This document shows positions 1 through 61,194 of a stretch of DNA of 64,000 nt, in pieces. The DNA lies in assembly GCA_031425235.1 (NCBI GenBank), contig JANPIZ010000008.1:91377-155376 (forward strand), in the 5' to 3' direction. This stretch comes from Candidatus Nomurabacteria bacterium (lineage in GTDB: Bacteria; Patescibacteriota; Minisyncoccia; Phycocordibacterales; UBA9973). The position numbers and the translations under genes are program-made. The notes under the pieces were generated by a model. It was not told where the DNA came from. It searched no databases and worked only from the letters and a program-made list of their open reading frames with translations. The stretch's first letter is position 1; each line of letters starts with the position of its first letter.

Positions 1-357
1 GTGATGCTGATTTGAAAGGCGAGAGAGAACAAGGCGGTAGCCACCAAGGCTTCCCTTAAGCCATTTTGATATGCGGGCAATTGTCGTAGAAGAAAGCCCT
101 GTGCTCTCACTGATAGCATTGTACTGCACATCTCTTGAGAGTAGGGAAGCAGCTTCGAGTCTATTTGCGAATTCTTGTATTTCACCTTCAGTCATAAGGT
201 CACGTAGAAAAGATTCAGCTTCTTGTGTATTTTTCAAAGCCAAAAAAGCTTGCACGAGTTGCTTGTTTTCAGGTTGGTTCCAGTCAATGTTTGACCCGAT
301 ACCTTGAACCATCTCTACTGTTTTAATATTCGTATTTTTATTCATTCCTTTACTCAT
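1..357 (-). CDS. TrpR-like YerC/YecD family DNA-binding protein (3' end runs off the window)
   Basis: Minus-strand ATG at 355-357. Translation MSKGMNKNTNIKTVEMVQG...FLRDLMTEGEIQEFANRLEAASLL...ISESTGLSSTTIARISKWLKGSLGGYRLVLSRL matches the YerC/YecD (TrpR-like) family along its whole length. It is absent from the ORF track only because it has no in-window stop. Confidence 0.8.
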   Translation of the reverse strand, partial: MSKGMNKNTNIKTVEMVQGIGSNIDWNQPENKQLVQAFLALKNTQEAESFLRDLMTEGEIQEFANRLEAASLLSRDVQYNAISESTGLSSTTIARISKWLKGSLGGYRLVLSRLSNQHH

Positions 358-358
358 C

Positions 359-430
359 CCAGTACTAAAATTTTAAGTTTATATTAATATCGACTCTTGT
401 CCGTAATCAAAAATTTAGTACGGGACAAGT
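359..430 (-). repeat. Copy 1 (reverse orientation) of a ~70-bp TIR-bearing upstream cassette; abuts the yerC-like start codon
   Basis: About 85-90% identical to 10677-10745 and 21602-21673. Terminal inverted repeats are GTACTAAA(A)TTTT ... AAAATTTTAGTAC, with an internal cccgta/tacggg hairpin. Confidence 0.75.
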
Positions 431-443
431 ACAGCTACTTTAT

Positions 444-473
444 CAAACTAAAGTACTTTAGTCAAGTAAAGTA
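444..473. repeat. Copy 1 of a 29-nt motif containing the perfect palindrome CTAAAGTACTTTAG
   Basis: caaACTAAAGTACTTTAGTCAAGTAAAGTA is repeated almost exactly at 6337-6365. Confidence 0.7.
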
Positions 474-587
474 TAAAAATCGCTGTGGAAAACTTTACTT
501 AGGTAAAGTAGGTAATTAAAGCTTTATTTAAATAAAATAAAAAGTCAGCATTCTTGTTTTGAATTACTGACTTTTTTGATAATTTAT

Positions 588-6325: not shown

Positions 6326-6336
6326 CTGACTTTATT

Positions 6337-6365
6337 CAACTAAAGTACTTTAGTCAAGTAAAGTA
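6337..6365. repeat. Copy 2 of the CTAAAGTACTTTAG-containing motif; abuts the start codon of Cys-rich paralogue 1
   Basis: Identical 27-nt core to 444-473. It ends 4 nt before the ATG at 6370. Confidence 0.7.
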
Positions 6366-6369
6366 AAAA

Positions 6370-8076
6370 ATGAAACAAGAAAGTGAAACAAAATCGTGCC
6401 AGAATTGCAAACAAGACTTTACTATCGAGCCGGACGATTTTGGATTTTATGAAAAAATAAAAGTACCTCTGCCAACTTTTTGCTCAGAATGCCGCAGGCA
6501 AAGAAGGCTTGCATGGAAGAATACATACAACTTATACAACAATTCTTGTAGTCTTTGTGGTAAAAACATTATTTCAATATATTCCCCTGATTCCTCTTTA
6601 ATTATTTACTGTGTTAGCTGTTTTTGGAGTGATAAATGGGATGCATATCAATACGGGCAAGATTTTGACCCTAATAGGTCTTTTTTTGAACAGTATATAG
6701 ATCTTAATAAAAAGGTACCAAAAATAGCTTTAATGAATGATGATGGTATTGCAAGTGTAAATAGTGCTTATTGTCACGATGTTGCTTTTTCGAAAAATTG
6801 CTACATGGTATTTATTTCCTGGAAACTTGAAAATGTGATGTATTCAGGAATGTTAAACAAGGGTCGCGAAATATGCGATTGCCTTTGCATGCAAGATTTT
6901 TGTGAGTATATGTACGAGTCAATGTTTGTAGATGAATGTTATAAATGCAGATATGTGACGTATGGTAGCATGCTACAAAATTGCGATTTTTGTTATGATT
7001 GTCGTGAGTGCAGTGATTGCTTTATGAGCTTTGGCTTGCGTAATAAAAAATATTTTTATAAGAACAAACAGTATTCCAAAGAAGAATACGAAAAAATTCT
7101 TAAATCTTATCAATTGCATACACGAACGGGTTGGGAAAGAGCCAAAAATGAATATAAAGAATTTATAATAACTTATCCTCGTCGTTTTGCTATGATAAGG
7201 AATTCAGTTAACTGTACGGGAGATGACCTTATAAGATGTAAAAACACGAGAGATTCCTTTTTTGCTCCCTTTAGTGAAGACTCTCGCTTTGTTGCAGGAG
7301 GGGTTAATTTTAAGAATTGTTATGATTTGTCTGGTGGAGGGGAAGTAGAGTATAGTTATGAATCTATCACGCCCGATCAATCATATAATAATTTTTTTAG
7401 TATCTATTCTTGGAAAAATAAAGAAATAGCTTATTGTGATAATTGTCATTCGTCTAATAACCTTTTTGGTTGTGCAAGCTTGAAAAAAGGTGAATACTCA
7501 ATATTAAATAAGAAATATTCAAAAGAAGATTATTTTAAATTAAAAGAAAAAATAATAATAAAAATGAAACATGATGGGGAATGGGGAGAATTTTTTCCAG
7601 TTCGATATTCATATTTTGGATATAATGAAACTGAAGCTTTTGATATGAATATTTTATCAAAACATGAAGCTGAAAATTTAAACTATAAATGGCGAGATAA
7701 TTTACAAAGAACTATTGGACAAGAAACTATCTCTCAAAAGGAAATACCAGATTCTATTTTTGATACAACTGAGTATATTTTATATGAAATTTTAAAATGT
7801 GAATCTTGCTCTCGAAATTATAAAGTTACGAACGACGAGCTGGTGTTTTACAAAAGAATGAATGTACCTATTCCAAAAATTTGCTTTTTCTGTAGAAATA
7901 AAAATCGCTTAAATACTAGAAATCCGTTTAAGCTTTGGCATCGCTCATGTATGTGTACTGTCAAGAATCACTTTCATGGAGAAAATAATTGTAAAATAGA
8001 ATTTGAAACTTCCTATGCCCCTGATCGGCCGGAGATGGTATATTGTGAAAAATGTTATCAAGCTGAAGTTTACTAG
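6370..8076 (+). CDS. Large cysteine-rich protein, paralogue 1 (unrecognised family; terminal zinc-ribbon-like motifs plus internally duplicated Cys-repeat core)
   Basis: 568 aa. N-terminal CQNCKQDF...FYEKIKVPLPTFCSECRRQRRL...C..C is repeated near the C-terminus (FYKRMNVPIPKICFFCRNKNRL...C.C). N-K-K-Y-S-K-E-E/D-Y occurs twice. The protein aligns end to end at roughly 40% identity with the ORF at 47848-49554. Confidence 0.8.
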   Translation: MKQESETKSCQNCKQDFTIEPDDFGFYEKIKVPLPTFCSECRRQRRLAWKNTYNLYNNSCSLCGKNIISIYSPDSSLIIYCVSCFWSDKWDAYQYGQDFDPNRSFFEQYIDLNKKVPKIALMNDDGIASVNSAYCHDVAFSKNCYMVFISWKLENVMYSGMLNKGREICDCLCMQDFCEYMYESMFVDECYKCRYVTYGSMLQNCDFCYDCRECSDCFMSFGLRNKKYFYKNKQYSKEEYEKILKSYQLHTRTGWERAKNEYKEFIITYPRRFAMIRNSVNCTGDDLIRCKNTRDSFFAPFSEDSRFVAGGVNFKNCYDLSGGGEVEYSYESITPDQSYNNFFSIYSWKNKEIAYCDNCHSSNNLFGCASLKKGEYSILNKKYSKEDYFKLKEKIIIKMKHDGEWGEFFPVRYSYFGYNETEAFDMNILSKHEAENLNYKWRDNLQRTIGQETISQKEIPDSIFDTTEYILYEILKCESCSRNYKVTNDELVFYKRMNVPIPKICFFCRNKNRLNTRNPFKLWHRSCMCTVKNHFHGENNCKIEFETSYAPDRPEMVYCEKCYQAEVY

Positions 8077-10676: not shown

Positions 10677-10745
10677 TTGTCCCGTACTAAATTTTTGATT
10701 ACGGGGTATAATGATAAATATTAATATTTAAAATTTTAGTACTGG
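10677..10745 (+). repeat. Copy 2 of the ~70-bp TIR-bearing upstream cassette; abuts the protease start codon
   Basis: ttgtcccgtactaaatttttgattacgggg...aaaattttagtactgg followed directly by the ATG at 10747. Confidence 0.75.
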
Positions 10746-12258: not shown

Positions 12259-12279
12259 TAGTCAAAATTTGTGACCCTA
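12259..12279 (+). repeat. 21-bp direct repeat (copy 2), overlapping the 3' acceptor end of tRNA-Glu
   Basis: The last 7 nt (gacccta) are the tRNA acceptor 3' strand. Confidence 0.8.
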
Positions 12280-12343
12280 CAGGGAATCGAACCCTGATTA
12301 CCGCCTTGAGAAGGCGATGTCCTAACCGTTAGACGATAGGGCC
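12272..12343 (-). tRNA. tRNA-Glu (anticodon CUC)
   Basis: 72-nt cloverleaf folded by hand. Acceptor GGCCCTA/TAGGGTC (one G-U pair), anticodon loop ttCTCaa, T-loop TTCGATT. No CCA is encoded. Confidence 0.8.
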
Positions 12344-12413
12344 ATGTAGAAAAAATATAACATTTTTCAAAAAAAATGGAAAATTATTTTTATCTCTAAA
12401 AAATTACCGTCAT

Positions 12414-12810
12414 CTATGTAGATGACGGTGTAGTTGTTTGTGTGATGTTTTTTGTAGCTATTACGATGCCCCAGAAGCACGCGTCGGCAACAAGACCACC
12501 CATTATTCCTCCGGCTGTAACCCCAAAGAAATTTATAAAAATAAATATGAACAGTGGTCGGAGCAAAAAGCTATCTAAAACTTCAGCTCCAAAAAATTCT
12601 CTAATTACTTTACCTATCGAGCTAAAGTAACCCCCTGTTGGCAATTTTCTTTTCAAAAATTGTAGCGACGATCCAACAGGGAAGAATGTCAGCTGCAATA
12701 AATATTACAATCGCAGTATTTTTATCGACTGCAATTACACCGAGCAAGATTGCAATTGTGATGCTTACTAGGTGTGAAATCAACTCGTTAGCTAAAATAT
12801 TATTTAACAT
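12414..12810 (-). pseudogene. Possible frameshifted small membrane protein (two overlapping ORFs, 62 aa and 94 aa; the downstream part resembles the GlsB/YeaQ/YmgE transglycosylase-associated family)
   Basis: The ORFs at 12622-12810 and 12414-12698 overlap at a G5 run (aacagggggttac) where a +1 shift joins them. Gly-rich TM segments FFGVTAGGIMGGLVADACFWGIVIA. Confidence 0.3.
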
Positions 12811-21601: not shown

Positions 21602-21673
21602 CTTGTCCCGTACTAAATTTTTGATTACGGGGCATAAAAATAAACATTATTAATTTAAAATTTTAGTACCGGG
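21602..21673 (+). repeat. Copy 3 of the ~70-bp TIR-bearing cassette, inside the operon and abutting the ABC ATPase start codon
   Basis: cttgtcccgtactaaatttttgattacgggg...ttaaaattttagtaccggg followed directly by the ATG at 21674. Confidence 0.75.
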
Positions 21674-22729: not shown

Positions 22730-22828
22730 ATGTCAGATAAAAAGTATTACTATACTATCGGTTTGGAAATTCATCCCAGCAGCAGAGCAAAGCTCGCTAC
22801 GGGACAGGCGCTGAACTCTTATGAATAA
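22730..22828 (+). pseudogene. Duplicated 5' fragment of gatB (32-codon ORF MSDKKYYYTIGLEIH...)
   Basis: The first 15 codons parallel the authentic GatB N-terminus MNKYYYTIGLEIH, then diverge. Its stop overlaps the real gatB ATG in a different frame. Confidence 0.55.
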
Positions 22829-24254
22829 ATATTACTACACAATTGGACTAGAAATACACGCAGAGCTAAAAACTTTGACGAAGATGTTTTGTGGGTGTAA
22901 GAATGACCCAGATGAAACTAAACCAAATGTAAATATTTGCCCGGTGTGTATGGCTCATCCAGGTGCTCTTCCGGTAATAAATAAAAAGGCTATAGAACAA
23001 GTAATAAAAGTTGGCCTTGCTGTCGATGCAAAGATTGCTGACTTTTCAGAATTTGATCGTAAAAACTATTTCTATCCAGATATTCCAAAGGGCTACCAGA
23101 TTTCACAATATAAATATCCAATAGTTTCTGGCGGCCATTTGGCTGATATGGACATCACCCGTATTCACCTCGAGGAAGATACTGCGAACAATAAACACCG
23201 CGGAGAAATATCACTTATCGATTTCAATCGTGCCGGAGTGCCGCTTATGGAGCTCGTAACTGAGCCGCATACATTTGAGTCAGCGGAAGAAGCTGCTAAA
23301 ACAGCGAGTAATTTTGCCAAAGAATATCAACTCATTTTATGGTACCTCGGAGCTTCGGAAGCAAATATGGAAAAAGGCGAGATGCGTGTAGAAGCTAATG
23401 TATCTGTGTCTCCAGATAAAGACAAAAAATGGACAAATTATGTAGAGGTGAAAAACCTAAATTCTTTTAAAAGTGTCGAGCGAGCTATCAAATTTGAGGT
23501 AGAACGCATGACAGCTTTGTGGAATGAAGGTAAAGAGAATGAAATAATAAAAGAGACGAGAGGTTTCGACGAAAGTAAACAAAAAACATTTTCACAGCGC
23601 TCAAAAGAAAACGCTGAGGATTATAGGTATTTCCCTGATCCAGATTTACCGAAACTCAAGCTTTACGAAGCTTTTGATATAGAAAAAATGAAAGCTGAAT
23701 TACCAGAATTACCAGTAGCTAAACGCGCTCGTTATAAAAATGATTTCGGAATTAAAGATGAGGATATAGAAATATATATAAATGACCTTGAAATAGGCTA
23801 TTGGTTTGAGAGTATTGCAAAATTATTAGGTGAAAAGGATAAAGTAAAAATTGCATCGAATTACATAACTTCAGATTTCTTAGGTCTCAAAAAGACCAAC
23901 TTGGCGACCAGGTCGCCAAGTGCGGAAAATTTCACTGAGTTGATAAATTTAGTTTCAGAAAATAAATTATCTTCACGAAGCGCAAAAGATATTCTTGCTA
24001 TGATAGTCATAAACGATGAATCACCATTACAAATAGCTACAGAAAAGAATTTACTTCAGAGTAATGATGAAGGTGCACTAAAAGAAATTGTCCAAAAAAT
24101 AATTGATGAAAATCCTGAGCCAGTGGCTTCGTATAAATCAGGTAAGGAAAATGCTATTATGTCACTCGTCGGGAAAATAATAAAAGCTTCCAATGGTGCT
24201 GCAAACCCTCAAGTGGTTATCAAACTTCTCAAAGAAATGCTCGCCTCGTCGTAG
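22821..24254 (+). CDS. gatB: Asp/Glu-tRNA amidotransferase subunit B
   Basis: Full-length GatB with the C-terminal YqeY-like domain. Contains the 23-bp palindromic insert at 23899-23921. Confidence 0.9.
   Translation: MNKYYYTIGLEIHAELKTLTKMFCGCKNDPDETKPNVNICPVCMAHPGALPVINKKAIEQVIKVGLAVDAKIADFSEFDRKNYFYPDIPKGYQISQYKYPIVSGGHLADMDITRIHLEEDTANNKHRGEISLIDFNRAGVPLMELVTEPHTFESAEEAAKTASNFAKEYQLILWYLGASEANMEKGEMRVEANVSVSPDKDKKWTNYVEVKNLNSFKSVERAIKFEVERMTALWNEGKENEIIKETRGFDESKQKTFSQRSKENAEDYRYFPDPDLPKLKLYEAFDIEKMKAELPELPVAKRARYKNDFGIKDEDIEIYINDLEIGYWFESIAKLLGEKDKVKIASNYITSDFLGLKKTNLATRSPSAENFTELINLVSENKLSSRSAKDILAMIVINDESPLQIATEKNLLQSNDEGALKEIVQKIIDENPEPVASYKSGKENAIMSLVGKIIKASNGAANPQVVIKLLKEMLASS
23899..23921. 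repeat. 23-bp perfect palindrome inserted in frame in gatB
   Basis: acttggcgaccaggtcgccaagt encodes NLATRSPSA. The identical sequence occurs in topA at 59851-59873. Confidence 0.85.
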
Positions 24255-58725: not shown

Positions 58726-61014
58726 CTATGCTATCTTATTTAATTTATGAGGGTTGTGCATTTTACATGCCTTATTACTACAACGCTCAGGAATTGTTTT
58801 CGTGCCTTCCATCATTAAACTACTGCATTCTTTACATATATTGCCGGTAGGTTTAGCTTTTATCGCAAACTTACATTTTGGATAGTTAGAGCAAGAGTAG
58901 AAAACACCAAATCTTCCACGTCTCTCTGAAATATCTCCAGTTTTACACTCTGGACACATTACTCCAGTTCGCTTTTTAGCTTCATCAGCCTCATCGCTTT
59001 TTACATATTTACATTTTGGGTACCTTGAACATGAAATAAATGTTCCTGAGCCATCTCTGCGTTCACGTACTACTAATTTACCACCCATATCTTTTTTTCT
59101 TTTACCTTCGGCTTCAGCCAAAGCTACTGCAGGCGAAGAACACTGTGGGCATGGTTCGCCAGTTTCCTTTGGGCCTTGTAGTTGAGTACCGTCGAGCATT
59201 AGTGCTCCATCACAATCAGGATATTTTGAACACGAATAAAATTTACCCACACGCGCGAGTTTGATGATCATCTCACTACCGCATTTGGGACACTTCATAT
59301 TTTCTGGAGCATCGCCCAGATTTGTCGCCTTATCGAGTTTGTCTTTTGCTTTCACTTCTTTCAAAAATGGTCCGTAGAAATCTTTGAGAGTTTTTTCATA
59401 CTCACGTTCCCCACGTGAAATTTCATCCAGTTCATCTTCCATCTCGGCAGTGAATGTATCAGAAATATAATTTGCAAAATGTGCTTCAAGAAAATCAGAC
59501 ACGACTTCGCCCGTATCGGTAGGGAATAACGTCTTGCCTTCTTTGTGGACATAGCCTCTGTCTTCAATTGTTCGCATAATAGATGCATACGTAGAAGGCC
59601 GACCAATACCTCGGTTTTCAAGTTCTTTCACAAGTCCCGCTTCGCTATAACGCCCTGGTGGTTCGGTAAATTTTTCTTCGCTTATCAAATTTAGTAATTT
59701 TAACTTTTCTCCAACTTTACATAGTGGTAACTCGACATCGTCACCTCGTGCACCGGTATCTACCTTGAGCCATCCAGGAAAAAGAAGTCGTGAACCTTTT
59801 GCATTAAAGTCTGTAATATCCTTGTCCTTGGCGCCCTGGTCGCCATGTGCACTTGGCGACCAGGTCGCCAAGTTAGCCAAATTTGCGGTAATTTTTGTTT
59901 TGAGTAACTTTGCATCGGTCATTTGTGAGGAAATAGCCCGCTCCCAAATGAGTCGATACAGTTTTTGTTGTTCGTCCGTGCCTGCATGCAACTTCTCTAT
60001 ATGTGTCGGTCGTATTGCTTCGTGTGCTTCTTGGGCATTTTTAGATTTTGTTTTATATGTCCTTTTTTCAGCATACTCGGTACCGTATTCTTTTTTTACA
60101 AAAGATAAAATCTGATCTTGGGCTGCCACAGATAAATTCGTACTGTCTGTACGCATATAGCTAATATGTCCAGCCTCATACAACTTCTGTGCAAGCTGCA
60201 TTGTACGCGAAGGAGAATAGCCAAGGCGAGAACTCGCTGTCTGTTGAAGTGTTGAAGTCGTAAATGGTGCCCGTGGTGAACGTTTTTGTTCTGATTCTTT
60301 TACGCCTAAAATGCTCCAAGTACCCGCTTTACCTGCTTCCATTATTTTTTCCACCAGCTTTTCATCTCGTGGTTCTTCACTGCATTCTAATGTTAGCTTG
60401 TCACCTTTGGCTGTATCAAAAAGTCCTCGTATTCTCCAATATTTCTCTGGAATAAAAGCACGGATTTCTCGCTCCCGCTCCATAATTATCCGAAGTGCAG
60501 GGGATTGAACCCGGCCTGCCGAAAGTCCGTAACGCACTTTTTTCCATATGAGCCCTGAAAGGTCGTAGCCCACGAGTCGATCGAGCACTCTGCGTGCTTC
60601 CTGAGCTTTACGTAGATGTGTATCTATTTTACGTGGATGCTTGAGTGCTTCTTCTACTGCGGCCTTAGTGATTTCATGGAAAGCTACGCGTTCAATTGGC
60701 GCTTTGATTTTTTTGTCTTGTTTTAAAAGCTCTTCGATGTGCCAGGCTATTGCTTCACCTTCGCGGTCGGGGTCAGTCGCGAGCAGTATATCAGTAGCTT
60801 TTTTTGCGAGTTCCTGCAATTCGTGTACTACTTTTTCTTTGCCTTTTGAGATTTCATAATGAGGAATAAATCCACCTTCGATATCGATAGCTGCCTTATT
60901 TGATTTTGGTAAGTCACGAATGTGTCCGACAGACGCACGAACAGTAAAAGCGCCTTCGAGATATTTCTCGATTGTTTTCGCTTTTGATGGTGACTCAACA
61001 ATTAATAATTTCAT
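58726..61014 (-). CDS. topA: DNA topoisomerase I with C-terminal zinc ribbons
   Basis: MKLLIVESPSKAKTI Toprim N-terminus, catalytic-Tyr region and multiple Cys4 ribbons. The ATG at 61012-61014 is preferred over the track's upstream start. Confidence 0.9.
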   Translation of the reverse strand: MKLLIVESPSKAKTIEKYLEGAFTVRASVGHIRDLPKSNKAAIDIEGGFIPHYEISKGKEKVVHELQELAKKATDILLATDPDREGEAIAWHIEELLKQDKKIKAPIERVAFHEITKAAVEEALKHPRKIDTHLRKAQEARRVLDRLVGYDLSGLIWKKVRYGLSAGRVQSPALRIIMEREREIRAFIPEKYWRIRGLFDTAKGDKLTLECSEEPRDEKLVEKIMEAGKAGTWSILGVKESEQKRSPRAPFTTSTLQQTASSRLGYSPSRTMQLAQKLYEAGHISYMRTDSTNLSVAAQDQILSFVKKEYGTEYAEKRTYKTKSKNAQEAHEAIRPTHIEKLHAGTDEQQKLYRLIWERAISSQMTDAKLLKTKITANLANLATWSPSAHGDQGAKDKDITDFNAKGSRLLFPGWLKVDTGARGDDVELPLCKVGEKLKLLNLISEEKFTEPPGRYSEAGLVKELENRGIGRPSTYASIMRTIEDRGYVHKEGKTLFPTDTGEVVSDFLEAHFANYISDTFTAEMEDELDEISRGEREYEKTLKDFYGPFLKEVKAKDKLDKATNLGDAPENMKCPKCGSEMIIKLARVGKFYSCSKYPDCDGALMLDGTQLQGPKETGEPCPQCSSPAVALAEAEGKRKKDMGGKLVVRERRDGSGTFISCSRYPKCKYVKSDEADEAKKRTGVMCPECKTGDISERRGRFGVFYSCSNYPKCKFAIKAKPTGNICKECSSLMMEGTKTIPERCSNKACKMHNPHKLNKIA
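59851..59873. repeat. 23-bp perfect palindrome inserted in frame in topA, with a degenerate tandem copy at 59826-59847
   Basis: acttggcgaccaggtcgccaagt encodes NLATWSPSA. The adjacent ccttggcgccctggtcgccatg encodes HGDQGAKD. Confidence 0.85.
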
Positions 61015-61194
61015 CCTGTAGTGAAAAATGGCATCGCGCCAAAGGCGCAAGCTATAAATAAAGATATTATGCTAATAAATTTTGCTTATTATTTTAAATA
61101 AAGCCGTCATAAAAATGCAATGCCATTTTCTACTACGGGATTCATCAGTGACTAGTATTACATGAAAGAGATTTTTTTTGCAAATTTAAAATTA

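What the first reader, a model, noticed from the sequence alone, without database searches (positions are those of the whole stretch)
23899..23921. Identical 23-bp perfect palindrome inserted in frame into two unrelated essential genes (gatB and topA), encoding the same nonapeptide
acttggcgaccaggtcgccaagt occurs at 23899-23921 inside gatB, where it reads NLATRSPSA. It occurs again at 59851-59873 inside topA on the opposite coding strand, where it reads NLATWSPSA. In topA it sits next to a degenerate second copy (59826-59847, HGDQGAKD). The sequence is a perfect palindrome (cttggcgac-CAGG-tcgccaag), so it reads almost the same on either strand. Its GC content (~60%) is far above the local ~35%. 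This looks like the Rickettsia palindromic elements (RPEs), which are selfish palindromic repeats that insert in frame into coding sequences and add surface peptide loops to otherwise conserved proteins. Its presence in a putative CPR genome would be a new instance of that phenomenon.
Basis: seen in the sequence. Interest (0 to 1): 0.8.

Follow-up and report, generated by a model that had tools for sequence, protein, structure and literature searches.

The report
Transposase-linked palindromic repeat inside essential genes
The 23-base palindrome in gatB and topA is a copy of a short hairpin repeat that travels with its own tyrosine transposase gene in these ultra-small (CPR) bacteria; it adds a loop to TopA but in GatB it has overwritten native codons without changing the protein's length.

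Summary
ACTTGGCGACCAGGTCGCCAAGT occurs exactly at 23899-23921 (gatB) and 59851-59873 (topA), with a 3-mismatch copy at 59826-59848; none is expected by chance.

It is not an RPE. [quoted passage not shown]
- In at least 10 fetched RAYT loci, a ~215-aa Y1/HUH transposase has this palindrome on both flanks and inside its own ORF. Its best structural match is E. coli RAYT, 4ER8.
- The inner arms of the palindrome co-vary with the RAYT lineage (variants A, B, G and a TG..CA subtype).
- A RAYT with four perfect copies probably lies on the same 172-kb contig as the window.

'Insertion' holds only for topA. There a palindrome doublet adds 15 aa in a beta-hairpin turn, and other lineages carry other palindromes at the same loop. 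In gatB, and in MiaA, PolA and LigA of relatives, the element replaces native sequence with no gain in length. Orthologous sites carry different variants in different lineages.

Intragenic REPs are already known (Di Nocera 2013; Rickettsia). New here are the CPR host range, the missing GTAG tag, the REP inside the RAYT ORF, about 40% intragenic copies, and length-neutral in-place replacement. Verdict: new variant of a known kind.

The parts
23899..23921 (.). REP-like 23-bp palindrome, variant A, inside gatB. Reads (N)LATRSPS in the gatB frame. It is a length-neutral replacement of the native octapeptide.
   Evidence: Exact match; translation. 119 orthologues and the PDB GatBs have the same segment length. 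ssDNA hairpin dG -11.7 kcal/mol, z -5.0.
22821..24254 (+). gatB, the host gene (Asp/Glu-tRNA amidotransferase subunit B). The palindrome lies in the helical domain, opposite S. aureus GatB residues ~358-365.
   Evidence: ORF; PDB matches 3h0l, 3al0 and 2df4 (E 1e-96 to 1e-116); homologues.
59851..59873 (.). REP-like 23-bp palindrome, variant A, exact copy inside topA. Reads (N)LATWSPS on the minus strand.
59826..59848 (.). Degenerate second copy (3 mismatches: CCTTGGCGCCCTGGTCGCCATGT). Reads HGDQGAK(D) in topA.
59826..59873 (.). REPIN-like doublet. The two copies are 2 nt apart and fold together as one long hairpin.
   Evidence: I2: 23-nt arms, 91% complementary; dG -22 kcal/mol, z -7.3.
59818..59877 (-). 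Variable-loop segment of TopA (ANLATWSPSAHGDQGAKDKD, 20 aa) where the basal orthologue form has 5 aa (e.g. EGHED). Net +15 aa insertion in a beta-hairpin turn of domain II.
   Evidence: AF2 model: residues 383-398 have pLDDT <50 between strands 369-379 and 403-410 (low-confidence model).
58726..61050 (-). topA, the host gene (DNA topoisomerase I). The likely true start is the ATG at 61014 (MKLLIVESP...).
   Evidence: ORF; PDB matches (E 1e-143); homologues.

Best explanation
The 23-mer is one copy type ('variant A') of a REP-like hairpin repeat family. The family signature is ACTTGG-N5-N-N5'-CCAAGT. It belongs to a REP/RAYT system of Paceibacteria (CPR/Patescibacteria).

Shown:
- Each RAYT gene (~215 aa, HUH motif, conserved Tyr, Y1-transposase fold) has its cognate palindrome immediately upstream, immediately downstream, and inside its own ORF just after the catalytic-Tyr helix.
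- The five inner base pairs of the palindrome differ between RAYT lineages by compensatory changes. The outer ACTTGG/CCAAGT arms stay constant.
- The 23-mer has no stop codon in any of the six frames.
- About 40% of copies sit in frame inside genes.
- Copies enter coding sequence in two ways. (1) True insertion into loops that tolerate any length: topA here, as a doublet adding 15 aa, and RsmI in a relative. The topA loop is a hot spot that carries other palindrome families in other lineages. (2) Length-neutral replacement of native codons: gatB here, and MiaA, PolA and LigA in relatives.
- The same orthologous site carries different variants in different lineages. A syntenic RAYT locus carries variant A in one genome and variant G in another at all three homologous positions.

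Inferred:
- By analogy with E. coli TnpA-REP and IS608 TnpA, the RAYT binds the hairpin in single-stranded DNA, cleaves at its foot, and copies or re-joins it elsewhere.
- I propose that the constant outer arms are the cleavage and joining sites. An existing, decayed or pseudo-hairpin site could then be overwritten in place by the currently active variant. That would account for the length neutrality, for recurrent use of the same sites, and for the concerted change of all copies.
- The peptides themselves (LAT[R/W]SPS, LGD[Q/L]VAK) are probably passengers tolerated in variable segments, not functional additions.
For: Family and distribution:
- The 19-mer core occurs in many low-GC CPR contigs from genome and metagenome collections. 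Hits in GC-rich genomes are single and probably chance.

RAYT linkage:
- L003, L008, L031, L052, L124, L132, L143 and L152 each carry a Y1 transposase gene with variant A on both flanks and inside the ORF.
- Pfam Y1_Tnp E 4e-9. The best NCBIfam hit is 'REP-associated tyrosine transposase'.
- H79, H81 and Y139 are invariant in 46 homologues.
- AF2 model pLDDT 85. The top Foldseek PDB hit is 4er8_A, E. coli RAYT bound to a REP hairpin (E 5.8e-6), followed by ISDra2 and IS608 TnpA.
- 3706 homologues at E<=1e-10. Some are named RayT by JGI, and labelled members come from Giovannonibacteria, Paceibacterota and Minisyncoccia.

Co-variation:
- L126's RAYT is flanked by variant B (ACTTGGACATCSGATGTCCAAGT) and contains it.
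- L153's RAYT carries variant G (ACTTGGCGGCTSAGCCGCCAAGT). This was predicted from its internal peptide LGGSAAKL and then confirmed at all three positions.
- L132's RAYT carries the TG..CA subtype.
- Almost every ACTTGG-N11-CCAAGT in 645 kb of low-GC loci has 4-5 of 5 complementary inner pairs. The one exception is the decayed gatB copy in L144.

Same genome:
- RAYT P0301 and the window's GatB P0001 are each recorded on one NCBI contig of 172,293 bp.
- The Logan copy of P0301 (L152) has four perfect variant-A 23-mers and a matching GC content.

topA insertion:
-. Other lineages carry palindromic doublets of 45 and 47 bp, or a 23-bp palindrome, at the same loop. The nearest orthologue has none.

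Length-neutral replacement:
- gatB, MiaA, PolA and LigA.
- The window's GatB and L023's GatB are not close relatives, and their DNA identity is confined to 27 bp.
- GatB of L146 holds variant B at the same codons. L144 and L145 hold decayed copies with 4 mismatches each.
- 43 of 120 GatB octapeptides could be encoded by a perfect palindrome, against 7.2 +/- 2.4 in column shuffles.

In-place variant change:
- The RAYT loci of L003 and L153 are collinear but carry variant A versus variant G.

Templated origin:
- Copies are nearly all 0-1 mismatch, with almost no intermediate near-matches.

Hairpin stability.
Against: - No RAYT gene lies in the window itself.
- The RAYT scores far below the curated NCBIfam RAYT cut-off (24.6 vs 80 bits). 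It has no significant sequence match to solved Y1 transposases.
- The element lacks the GTAG tag typical of RAYT-associated REPs (PMC3733652).
- Most copies are single, not REPIN doublets.
- Copy number per genome is unknown and looks modest: 3 in 64 kb.
- Known Y1-transposase chemistry inserts without deleting. No characterised mechanism gives length-neutral replacement, so that step is hypothesis.
- The one DNA test of the GatB peptide-compatibility prediction gave only 8 of 11 pairs.
- No activity has been shown for any of these proteins.
Confidence: 0.75

Rival explanations
1. It is a protein-binding or DNA-uptake signal, comparable to DUS/USS uptake sequences or to parS/NBS/matS sites. 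On this view it accumulates inside genes by mutation plus biased uptake or recombination, or by selection for binding sites. The RAYT association is secondary.
For: - Length-neutral occurrence inside conserved genes is what uptake sequences and parS-type sites typically show (my own knowledge). It is seen here in gatB, MiaA, PolA and LigA.
- The identical 23-mer is conserved across divergent CPR lineages whose RAYTs are only ~55% identical.
- Lineage-specific variants resemble DUS 'dialects'.
- The 11+1+11 symmetry suits a dimeric DNA-binding protein.
- dprA sits next to topA in relatives.
Against: - Every variant examined is physically tied to a cognate RAYT gene: on both flanks and inside it.
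- Density is low, at 3 per 64 kb.
- Copies are almost all perfect, with no gradient of near-matches such as mutation-plus-drive would leave.
- In topA and RsmI the element is an outright insertion, and as a doublet in topA.
- The topA loop holds unrelated palindrome families in other lineages.
Confidence: 0.08
2. The gatB hairpin is an ancestral, gene-specific structural element, for example an mRNA hairpin that modulates translation or stability. It has been conserved by compensatory evolution, and its identity with the topA copy is secondary.
For: - 43 of 120 GatB orthologues have octapeptides compatible with a perfect palindrome at exactly this site, against ~7 expected.
- Different lineages show different perfect or near-perfect palindromes there.
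- Segment length is invariant.
Against: - The same 23-mer is found in unrelated genes, in intergenic DNA and at RAYT flanks.
- GatB variants A and B are identical to the palindromes flanking RAYTs of types A and B.
- MiaA and topA show the same multi-variant hot-spot behaviour.
- The closest relatives of the window's GatB have no palindrome.
Confidence: 0.05
3. It is a member of the Rickettsia palindromic element (RPE) families, or another transposase-less MITE.
For: In-frame position in conserved genes, palindromic structure, and loop addition in topA.
Against: - It is 23 bp, against ~150 bp for RPEs (PMC10969869).
- It has no CGTC tag, unlike RPE-4 and RPE-6, which are CGTC REPs (PMC3733652).
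- It is linked to a dedicated RAYT.
- It adds no loop in gatB.
- The host phylum is unrelated.
Confidence: 0.02
4. It is chance similarity, or an assembly or chimera artefact.
For: None beyond the short length of the element.
Against: - 0.00 matches expected in shuffles.
- The reading frame is preserved in two essential genes.
- The same element occurs in independent assemblies from many projects.
Confidence: 0.01

Closest known systems
REP/REPIN-RAYT systems ('REPtrons'), e.g. E. coli REP with TnpA-REP (PDB 4ER8) and Pseudomonas REPINs with Group 2/3 RAYTs
   Same: - Short GC-rich hairpin repeat dispersed in the genome.
- A single Y1/HUH tyrosine-transposase gene flanked by its cognate repeats.
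- Repeat sequence co-varies with the RAYT lineage, and two RAYT paralogues with different repeats can share a contig.
- The RAYT locus is syntenic between related genomes, which points to vertical inheritance.
- Occasional inverted doublets.
- The best structural match of the protein is 4ER8.
   Different: - No GTAG tag.
- A perfect 11+1+11 palindrome without bulges, and mostly single copies.
- About 40% of copies lie inside ORFs, whereas REPINs are 'almost exclusively' extragenic (bioRxiv 10.1101/2021.07.10.451892).
- A cognate repeat sits inside the RAYT ORF at a fixed position across the family.
- Length-neutral replacement at coding sites.
- The protein is below the NCBIfam RAYT cut-off.
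- The host is CPR/Paceibacteria, where I found no prior report in the held literature.
Intragenic GTAG/CGTC REPs (Di Nocera et al. 2013, PMC3733652), including Rickettsia RPE-4/-6, and the larger RPEs (Ogata et al., as summarised in PMC10969869)
   Same: - Palindromic repeats found in frame within known proteins, notably replication and repair genes.
- Singles and dimers that encode short peptides.
- Presumed to be tolerated in permissive protein regions.
   Different: - Those cases are described as ORFs 'interrupted' by inserts. Here four host genes show replacement without any gain in length.
- RPEs are ~150 bp, and CGTC REPs have no dedicated transposase. This element is 23 bp and RAYT-linked.
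- The tags GTAG and CGTC are absent.
IS200/IS605 family (IS608 TnpA, ISDra2 TnpA)
   Same: - Y1 HUH fold (Foldseek hits 2-12).
- Transposase flanked by hairpins.
- Expected action on single-stranded DNA.
   Different: - The flanking hairpins are the same palindrome on both sides, not distinct left and right ends.
- The gene is syntenic between genomes rather than multi-copy and mobile.
- The hairpin alone is dispersed.
DNA uptake sequences (Neisseria DUS, Pasteurellaceae USS)
   Same: - Frequent length-neutral occurrence inside coding sequence.
- Lineage 'dialects'.
- Conservation across species.
   Different: - Much lower density.
- Palindromic and 23 bp long.
- Copies are perfect rather than graded.
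- Tied to a transposase gene.
- Uptake bias has not been tested.

Membership tests
REP/REPIN-RAYT system | Short GC-rich palindrome able to form a stable stem-loop in single-stranded nucleic acid | tested here: met
   ssDNA dG -11.7 kcal/mol (z -5.0) for the gatB copy, -21.1 (z -8.5) for an extended extragenic copy, and -22 (z -7.3) for the topA doublet.
REP/REPIN-RAYT system | RAYT gene flanked by its cognate REP sequences | tested here: met
   At least 10 fetched loci show it, covering variants A, B, G and the TG..CA subtype. The window's own RAYT is inferred to be P0301 on the same 172,293-bp contig.
REP/REPIN-RAYT system | Transposase has the Y1/HUH fold with an HUH motif and a catalytic Tyr | tested here: met
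   Pfam PF01797 E 4e-9. H79, H81 and Y139 invariant in 46 sequences. Foldseek top hit 4er8_A, E 5.8e-6.
REP/REPIN-RAYT system | Repeat sequence specific to, and co-varying with, the RAYT lineage | tested here: met
   Variant A (L003, L152), B (L126), G (L153, predicted then confirmed) and TG..CA (L132).
REP/REPIN-RAYT system | Copies almost exclusively extragenic | tested here: not met
   of 55 unique 23-mers, 24 lie inside long ORFs (about 9 of them inside RAYT genes), 8 at gene ends and 23 are extragenic.
REP/REPIN-RAYT system | Conserved GTAG (or GTAG-like) tetranucleotide at one end of the hairpin | tested here: not met
   The sequence itself: flanks are [C/A]-ACTTGG...CCAAGT-[G/T], with no GTAG or CGTC. 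The criterion is taken from PMC3733652.
REP/REPIN-RAYT system | Organisation as REPIN doublets (two inverted REPs with a spacer, ~100 bp); hundreds of copies per genome | tested here: inconclusive
   The topA copy is a 48-bp doublet, and L148 and L149 carry doublets. Most variant-A copies are single. No complete genome was available for a per-genome count: 3 copies in the 64-kb window and 4 in the 13-kb L152.
REP/REPIN-RAYT system | Protein reaches the curated RAYT model threshold (NCBIfam NF047646 equivalog) | tested here: not met
   24.6 bits against a cut-off of 80. It is the best and only NCBIfam hit, so this is a distant branch.
REP/REPIN-RAYT system | RAYT inherited vertically at a conserved chromosomal locus | tested here: met
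   the L003 and L153 RAYT loci are collinear (upstream gene, RAYT, two PMT_2 genes). Only one pair was tested.
REP/REPIN-RAYT system | RAYT binds and cleaves its REP hairpin in ssDNA | not testable with these tools
   This needs purified protein and oligonucleotide assays.
Rickettsia palindromic elements (RPE) | Element of ~100-150 bp encoding a conserved ~30-50-aa peptide | tested here: not met
   The element is 23 bp (48 bp as a doublet) and encodes 7-8 residues per copy. The RPE size is taken from PMC10969869.
Rickettsia palindromic elements (RPE) | In-frame insertion that lengthens the host protein | tested here: inconclusive
   Met for topA (+15 aa) and RsmI (+12). Not met for gatB, MiaA, PolA or LigA.
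Rickettsia palindromic elements (RPE) | No dedicated transposase; CGTC tag for RPE-4/-6 | tested here: not met
   The element is RAYT-linked and has no CGTC tag in its sequence.
DNA uptake sequences (DUS/USS) | Very high genomic density (about 1 per kb) with many degenerate near-matches | tested here: not met
   3 copies in 64 kb. Across 14 CPR loci nearly all copies have 0-1 mismatch and few have 2-6.
DNA uptake sequences (DUS/USS) | Preferential uptake of DNA carrying the motif | not testable with these tools
   This needs transformation or uptake assays in a cultivated CPR strain.
IS200/IS605 insertion sequences | The whole element (tnpA plus distinct left and right subterminal hairpins) is multi-copy and mobile | tested here: not met
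   The flanks are the same palindrome on both sides. The locus is syntenic between genomes. The hairpin alone is dispersed.

The most novel reading that the evidence does not exclude
This RAYT family may do more than insert its hairpin. It may overwrite hairpin-like or decayed sites in place, preserving length, with the constant ACTTGG/CCAAGT arms serving as cleavage and re-joining points. That would be a templated 'patch-rewriting' activity. It would keep all copies identical, including the one inside the transposase's own ORF. It would switch whole populations of copies from one variant to another, and it would repeatedly rewrite the same short segments of essential proteins (GatB, MiaA, PolA, LigA) across CPR lineages.
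Probability: 0.25. Interest if true: 0.85.

Novelty: new variant of a known kind. Interest (0 to 1): 0.6.

Why it matters
How RAYTs spread and maintain REP sequences is still unresolved, and REPINs are thought to avoid coding DNA almost completely. Several features of this family bear on that question:
- The system lives in genomes with almost no intergenic space.
- It places a large share of its copies inside essential genes.
- It keeps a copy inside the transposase gene itself.
- At orthologous sites (gatB, miaA, the RAYT flanks) it shows one variant replaced by another without any length change.

That is a natural experiment on the copying mechanism. It suggests a length-preserving rewrite that known Y1-transposase chemistry does not predict.

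There are practical consequences too. These palindromes create recurrent, lineage-independent identical peptides in marker proteins (GatB, TopA, aminoacyl-tRNA synthetases, PolA). That can mislead phylogenies, recombination tests and chimera checks for CPR MAGs. The hairpins may also cause assembly breaks.

Tried and rejected
- **Sequence search of the RAYT against PDB.** The single-sequence search gave no meaningful hit. The 46-sequence profile gave only a marginal ISDra2 match (E 0.77). I replaced both with a fold comparison.
- **Viral contigs.** A scan for the 19-mer found nothing, so there is no evidence for phage carriage.
- **Direct proof that RAYT P0301 and the window share a contig.** The look-up of P0001 was 'not on record'. 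L152 does not overlap the window. Cluster records give only the equal contig length. The link therefore stays an inference.
- **Target-site duplications.** A strict scan for tandem duplication next to 48 unique copies found none. Only two loci (L025, L124) show a 13-nt partial arm copy at a 15-nt period. The short NLA|NLA and KD|KD repeats beside the topA insert are too weak to call.
- **Flank extension.** I tested whether copy-specific flanks that extend the palindrome are a property of extragenic copies only. Mean extension is the same in intragenic (1.6 bp) and extragenic (1.65 bp) copies, both above the chance value of 0.33.
- **Peptide-to-palindrome prediction for GatB 'QTEARLPS'.** The DNA shows only 8 of 11 pairs, so the 43/120 figure is an upper bound on real palindromes.
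- **TopA structure prediction.** Global confidence was low (pLDDT 59.9). I used it only to say that the insert lies between two strands.
- **L148's Y1 transposase.** I checked whether it explained that genome's topA palindrome. It is a different type with its own unrelated flanking inverted repeats.
- **Rfam.** A scan of the window found only four tRNAs.
- **Chance or artefact.** Rejected on the shuffle result and on independent assemblies.
Full report
**1. The observation**

ACTTGGCGACCAGGTCGCCAAGT is present exactly at window 23899-23921 and 59851-59873. A third copy with three mismatches (CCTTGGCGCCCTGGTCGCCATGT) lies at 59826-59848. Dinucleotide-preserving shuffles of the window expect 0.00 matches even with three mismatches allowed.

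The sequence is an 11+1+11 palindrome with an unpaired central base. It is 61% G+C in a 37.9% G+C window.

The first copy lies in gatB (22821..24254 +) and reads NLATRSPSA. The other two lie in topA (58726..61050 -) and read NLATWSPSA-HGDQGAKD. The 23-mer has no stop codon in any of its six frames: TWRPGRQ, LGD[Q/L]VAK and LAT[R/W]SPS. The closest homologues of both host proteins are from Paceibacterota, Nomurabacteria or Patescibacteria MAGs.

**2. What it belongs to**

I scanned 185,579 species-representative genomes for the 19-nt core TTGGCGACCWGGTCGCCAA and got 42 loci. Hits in GC-rich genomes are single and look like chance. Low-GC hits are CPR contigs, several with multiple copies.

In L003 (Giovannonibacteria) and L031 (Nomurabacteria), three copies bracket and interrupt one ~217-aa ORF. 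That ORF is a Y1/IS200-like transposase (Pfam PF01797, E 4e-9). Its only NCBIfam hit is 'REP-associated tyrosine transposase', although far below the curated cut-off (24.6 vs 80 bits).

The metagenome scan added more loci with the same layout: L052, L110, L122, L124, L132 and L143.

The family has 3706 homologues at E<=1e-10. Labelled members come from Giovannonibacteria, Paceibacterota and Minisyncoccia, and JGI calls some of them 'REP element-mobilizing transposase RayT'. In 46 aligned members H79, H81 and Y139 are invariant.

An AlphaFold model (pLDDT 85) has as its best PDB match 4er8_A, the E. coli REP-associated tyrosine transposase bound to a REP hairpin (E 5.8e-6). ISDra2 and IS608 TnpA follow. 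Sequence-only searches of PDB were uninformative.

The window itself contains no RAYT. However, RAYT P0301 is recorded on a single NCBI contig of 172,293 bp, the same length as the single contig that carries the window's GatB. A Logan assembly of the P0301 locus (L152; G+C 38.6%; no overlap with the window) has four perfect variant-A 23-mers. One is upstream of the RAYT, one inside it, one directly downstream, and one is 650 bp further on.

**3. Co-variation**

The GatB orthologue in L146 carries, at the very same codons, a different perfect palindrome: ACTTGGACATCCGATGTCCAAGT, 'variant B'. L126 holds a RAYT flanked on both sides by variant B, with internal B copies.

From the internal peptide 'LGGSAAKL' of RAYT P0259 I predicted a palindrome CTTGGCGGC...GCCGCCAAG. 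The DNA (L153) shows ACTTGGCGGCTSAGCCGCCAAGT upstream, inside and downstream of the gene. L132 has a RAYT with a TG..CA outer-base subtype.

In 645 kb of low-GC loci, almost every ACTTGG-N11-CCAAGT has 4-5 of 5 complementary inner pairs (CGACC, ACATC, CGGCT, AAGCT, GTGTC and others). The one exception is the decayed gatB copy in L144.

So this is a hairpin family with constant outer arms and lineage-specific inner arms matched to the RAYT. That is the hallmark of a REP-RAYT system.

As single strands the elements fold stably:
- gatB copy: -11.7 kcal/mol, z -5.0.
- topA doublet, which folds as one long hairpin: -22 kcal/mol, z -7.3.

None was found in viral contigs.

**4. Insertion or not?**

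*topA: yes.* Against 120 orthologues of 80-91% identity, the basal loop is five residues (for example EGHED). The window has twenty (ANLATWSPSAHGDQGAKDKD), a net +15 aa. Against E. coli TopA the surplus is ~19 aa, lying between 'LTVGA' and 'GDFRLKARG'.

The nearest orthologue (L151, 91% identity) has no insert. About a quarter of orthologues carry other inserts at the same loop. At DNA level these are other palindromes:
- L148: a 45-bp doublet with 19-bp arms.
- L149: a 47-bp doublet with 20-bp arms.
- L150: a 23-bp palindrome.

A low-confidence model puts the insert (pLDDT <50) between two beta-strands. By my reading of the published E. coli TopA domain boundaries (own knowledge), the aligned position is a hairpin turn in domain II.

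*gatB: no.* Three solved GatBs align through the segment with no net insertion in the query. All 119 close orthologues have exactly the same segment length, with the native pattern N-x-x-x-[KR]-x-P-S.

The window's closest GatB relatives (85%) have no palindrome. L023's GatB carries the identical 23-mer at the same codons. But it is not among the window's twelve best GatB matches (all 83% or more), and its own best matches (78% or less) lack the palindrome. DNA identity between the two is confined to 27 bp. L144 and L145 hold decayed copies with 4 mismatches each, and L146 holds variant B.

Forty-three of 120 orthologue octapeptides could be encoded by a perfect 23-bp palindrome in this frame. 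Column shuffles give 7.2 +/- 2.4, with a maximum of 17. The one DNA check of such a prediction gave 8 of 11 pairs, with all six outer pairs intact.

*The same two modes elsewhere:*
- MiaA is length-neutral: native KIQELKPK vs HLATRSPS (variant A, L042) vs TAEATPPP (a 27-bp palindrome, L149).
- PolA is length-neutral and aligns without gaps to Taq.
- LigA is 3 aa shorter than its H. influenzae homologue.
- RsmI is an insertion, +12 aa against E. coli.

**5. Census**

Of 55 unique variant-A 23-mers, 24 lie inside long ORFs (about nine of them inside RAYT genes), 8 lie within 15 codons of a gene end, and 23 are extragenic.

Identified by eye from conserved motifs, other hosts include Fmt, an aspartokinase-like protein, ArgRS and IleRS, and the ComEC C-terminus.

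Inside genes the frames used are LAT[R/W]SPS and LGD[Q/L]VAK. Flanks extend the palindrome by 1.6 bp on average (chance 0.33), and by 4 bp or more in 9 of 55 copies. Copies are almost all perfect, with few intermediates. This argues for templated copying rather than gradual convergence.

**6. In-place replacement**

The RAYT loci of L003 and L153 are collinear: the upstream gene end, the RAYT and two PMT_2 genes all align. Yet all three homologous repeat positions carry variant A in one genome and variant G in the other.

Together with gatB (A vs B) and MiaA (A vs the 27-bp palindrome), this shows that resident sites change variant as a unit without length change.

I infer a RAYT-dependent overwrite that uses the constant arms. 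Known Y1 chemistry (IS608, TnpA-REP) only explains insertion, so this step is hypothesis. One alternative is insertion followed by compensating deletion filtered by selection; no +8-aa intermediates were seen among 120 GatBs. The other is an uptake- or binding-site drive. That is disfavoured by the RAYT linkage, the low density and the absence of near-matches.

**7. Comparison with what is known**

REPINs are described as ~100-bp doublets in hundreds of copies, 'almost exclusively in extragenic space', with a single-copy, vertically inherited RAYT flanked by its REPs (bioRxiv 10.1101/2021.07.10.451892).

RAYT-associated REPs normally carry a GTAG tag. [quoted passage not shown] Rickettsia RPE-4 and RPE-6 are CGTC REPs (PMC3733652). 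The classical RPEs are ~150 bp (PMC10969869).

The present element works like a REP. It meets the tests for hairpin, RAYT flanking, co-variation, fold and synteny. It fails the extragenic and GTAG criteria and the curated RAYT score. It is not an RPE.

In the held library I found no paper linking RAYT or REPIN with Patescibacteria. The 2013 survey does not mention length-neutral replacement or a REP inside the RAYT ORF. Absence from this library is not proof of absence from the literature.

**8. Verdict**

The element is a new variant of a known kind: a CPR REP-RAYT system with unusually frequent intragenic copies. It inserts as a doublet in TopA and replaces native sequence without length change in GatB.

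- Interest: 0.6.
- Confidence in the REP-RAYT assignment: about 0.85.
- Confidence in RAYT-mediated spread: about 0.6.
- Confidence in the overwriting mechanism: about 0.25.

Noticed in passing
window 357-426, 10678-10745, 21605-21673: Three copies of a ~66-bp inverted-repeat motif (TTGTCCCGTACTAAATTTTTGATTACGGGG - ~25 nt - TTTAAAATTTTAGTACYGGG). Two of them end right at ORF start codons (ATG ~10737; ATG 21674 of an ABC-transporter ATPase), and the third is in the opposite orientation. It looks like a shared promoter, operator or 5' leader.
   Followed up: partly
window 436-510 and 6329-6364: AT-rich back-to-back palindromes (TACTTTATCAAACTAAAGT / ACTTTAGTCAAGTAAAGT) repeated at two intergenic places. 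They are unrelated to the GC-rich element.
   Followed up: no
window 12406-12429: A separate 24-bp palindrome, ACCGTCATCTATGTAGATGACGGT, about 60 bp from the tRNA gene at 12272-12343 (-). Possibly a terminator.
   Followed up: no
L148 19725-20399 (-) and flanks: A second, different Y1 transposase (classical 'YVERNPLRAKLV...WKWSSY' type). It is flanked by inverted 19-mers AAAGGTGTCAGGAACCTTT / AAAGGTTCCTGACACCTTT that are not related to the palindromes in that genome's topA.
   Followed up: partly
L025 ~7208-7245; L124 ~687-725: A 13-nt partial copy of one arm sits beside the full 23-mer at a 15-nt period: ACTTGGCGACCAGcgACTTGG... in L025 and ...CCAAGTgaCTGGTCGCCAAGT in L124. These read DLATS|DLATRSPS and SLGDQ|SLGDQVAK. 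They may be slippage or abortive-copying footprints. Only 2 of 48 copies show this.
   Followed up: partly
P0248 and P0252 (one 149,223-bp contig): Two RAYT paralogues on one contig have different internal palindrome-coded peptides (LGDLVAKL vs LGGSAAKL). This suggests two co-resident REP-RAYT pairs in one genome.
   Followed up: no
L153 1502-1524; L146 1219-1245 and 14241-14265; L149 16924-16950: Further GC-rich perfect palindromes of other sequence types occur in related genomes: ACTTGGGTGTCCGACACCCAAGT, CCTGTCGGGTGTCCAACACCCGACAGG, CCCCTCTCCTTATTAAGGAGAGGGG and TACGGCGGAGGCAACGCCTCCGCCGTA. Some resemble the palindromes inserted in topA of other lineages. These genomes appear to host several hairpin families.
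   Followed up: partly
window 59874-59883 and 59818-59829 (topA minus strand): Short imperfect direct repeats border the topA insert: AATTTGGCT|AACTTGGCG (NLA|NLA) on one side and AAGGAC|AAGGAT (KD|KD) on the other. They are too short to call target-site duplications.
   Followed up: no
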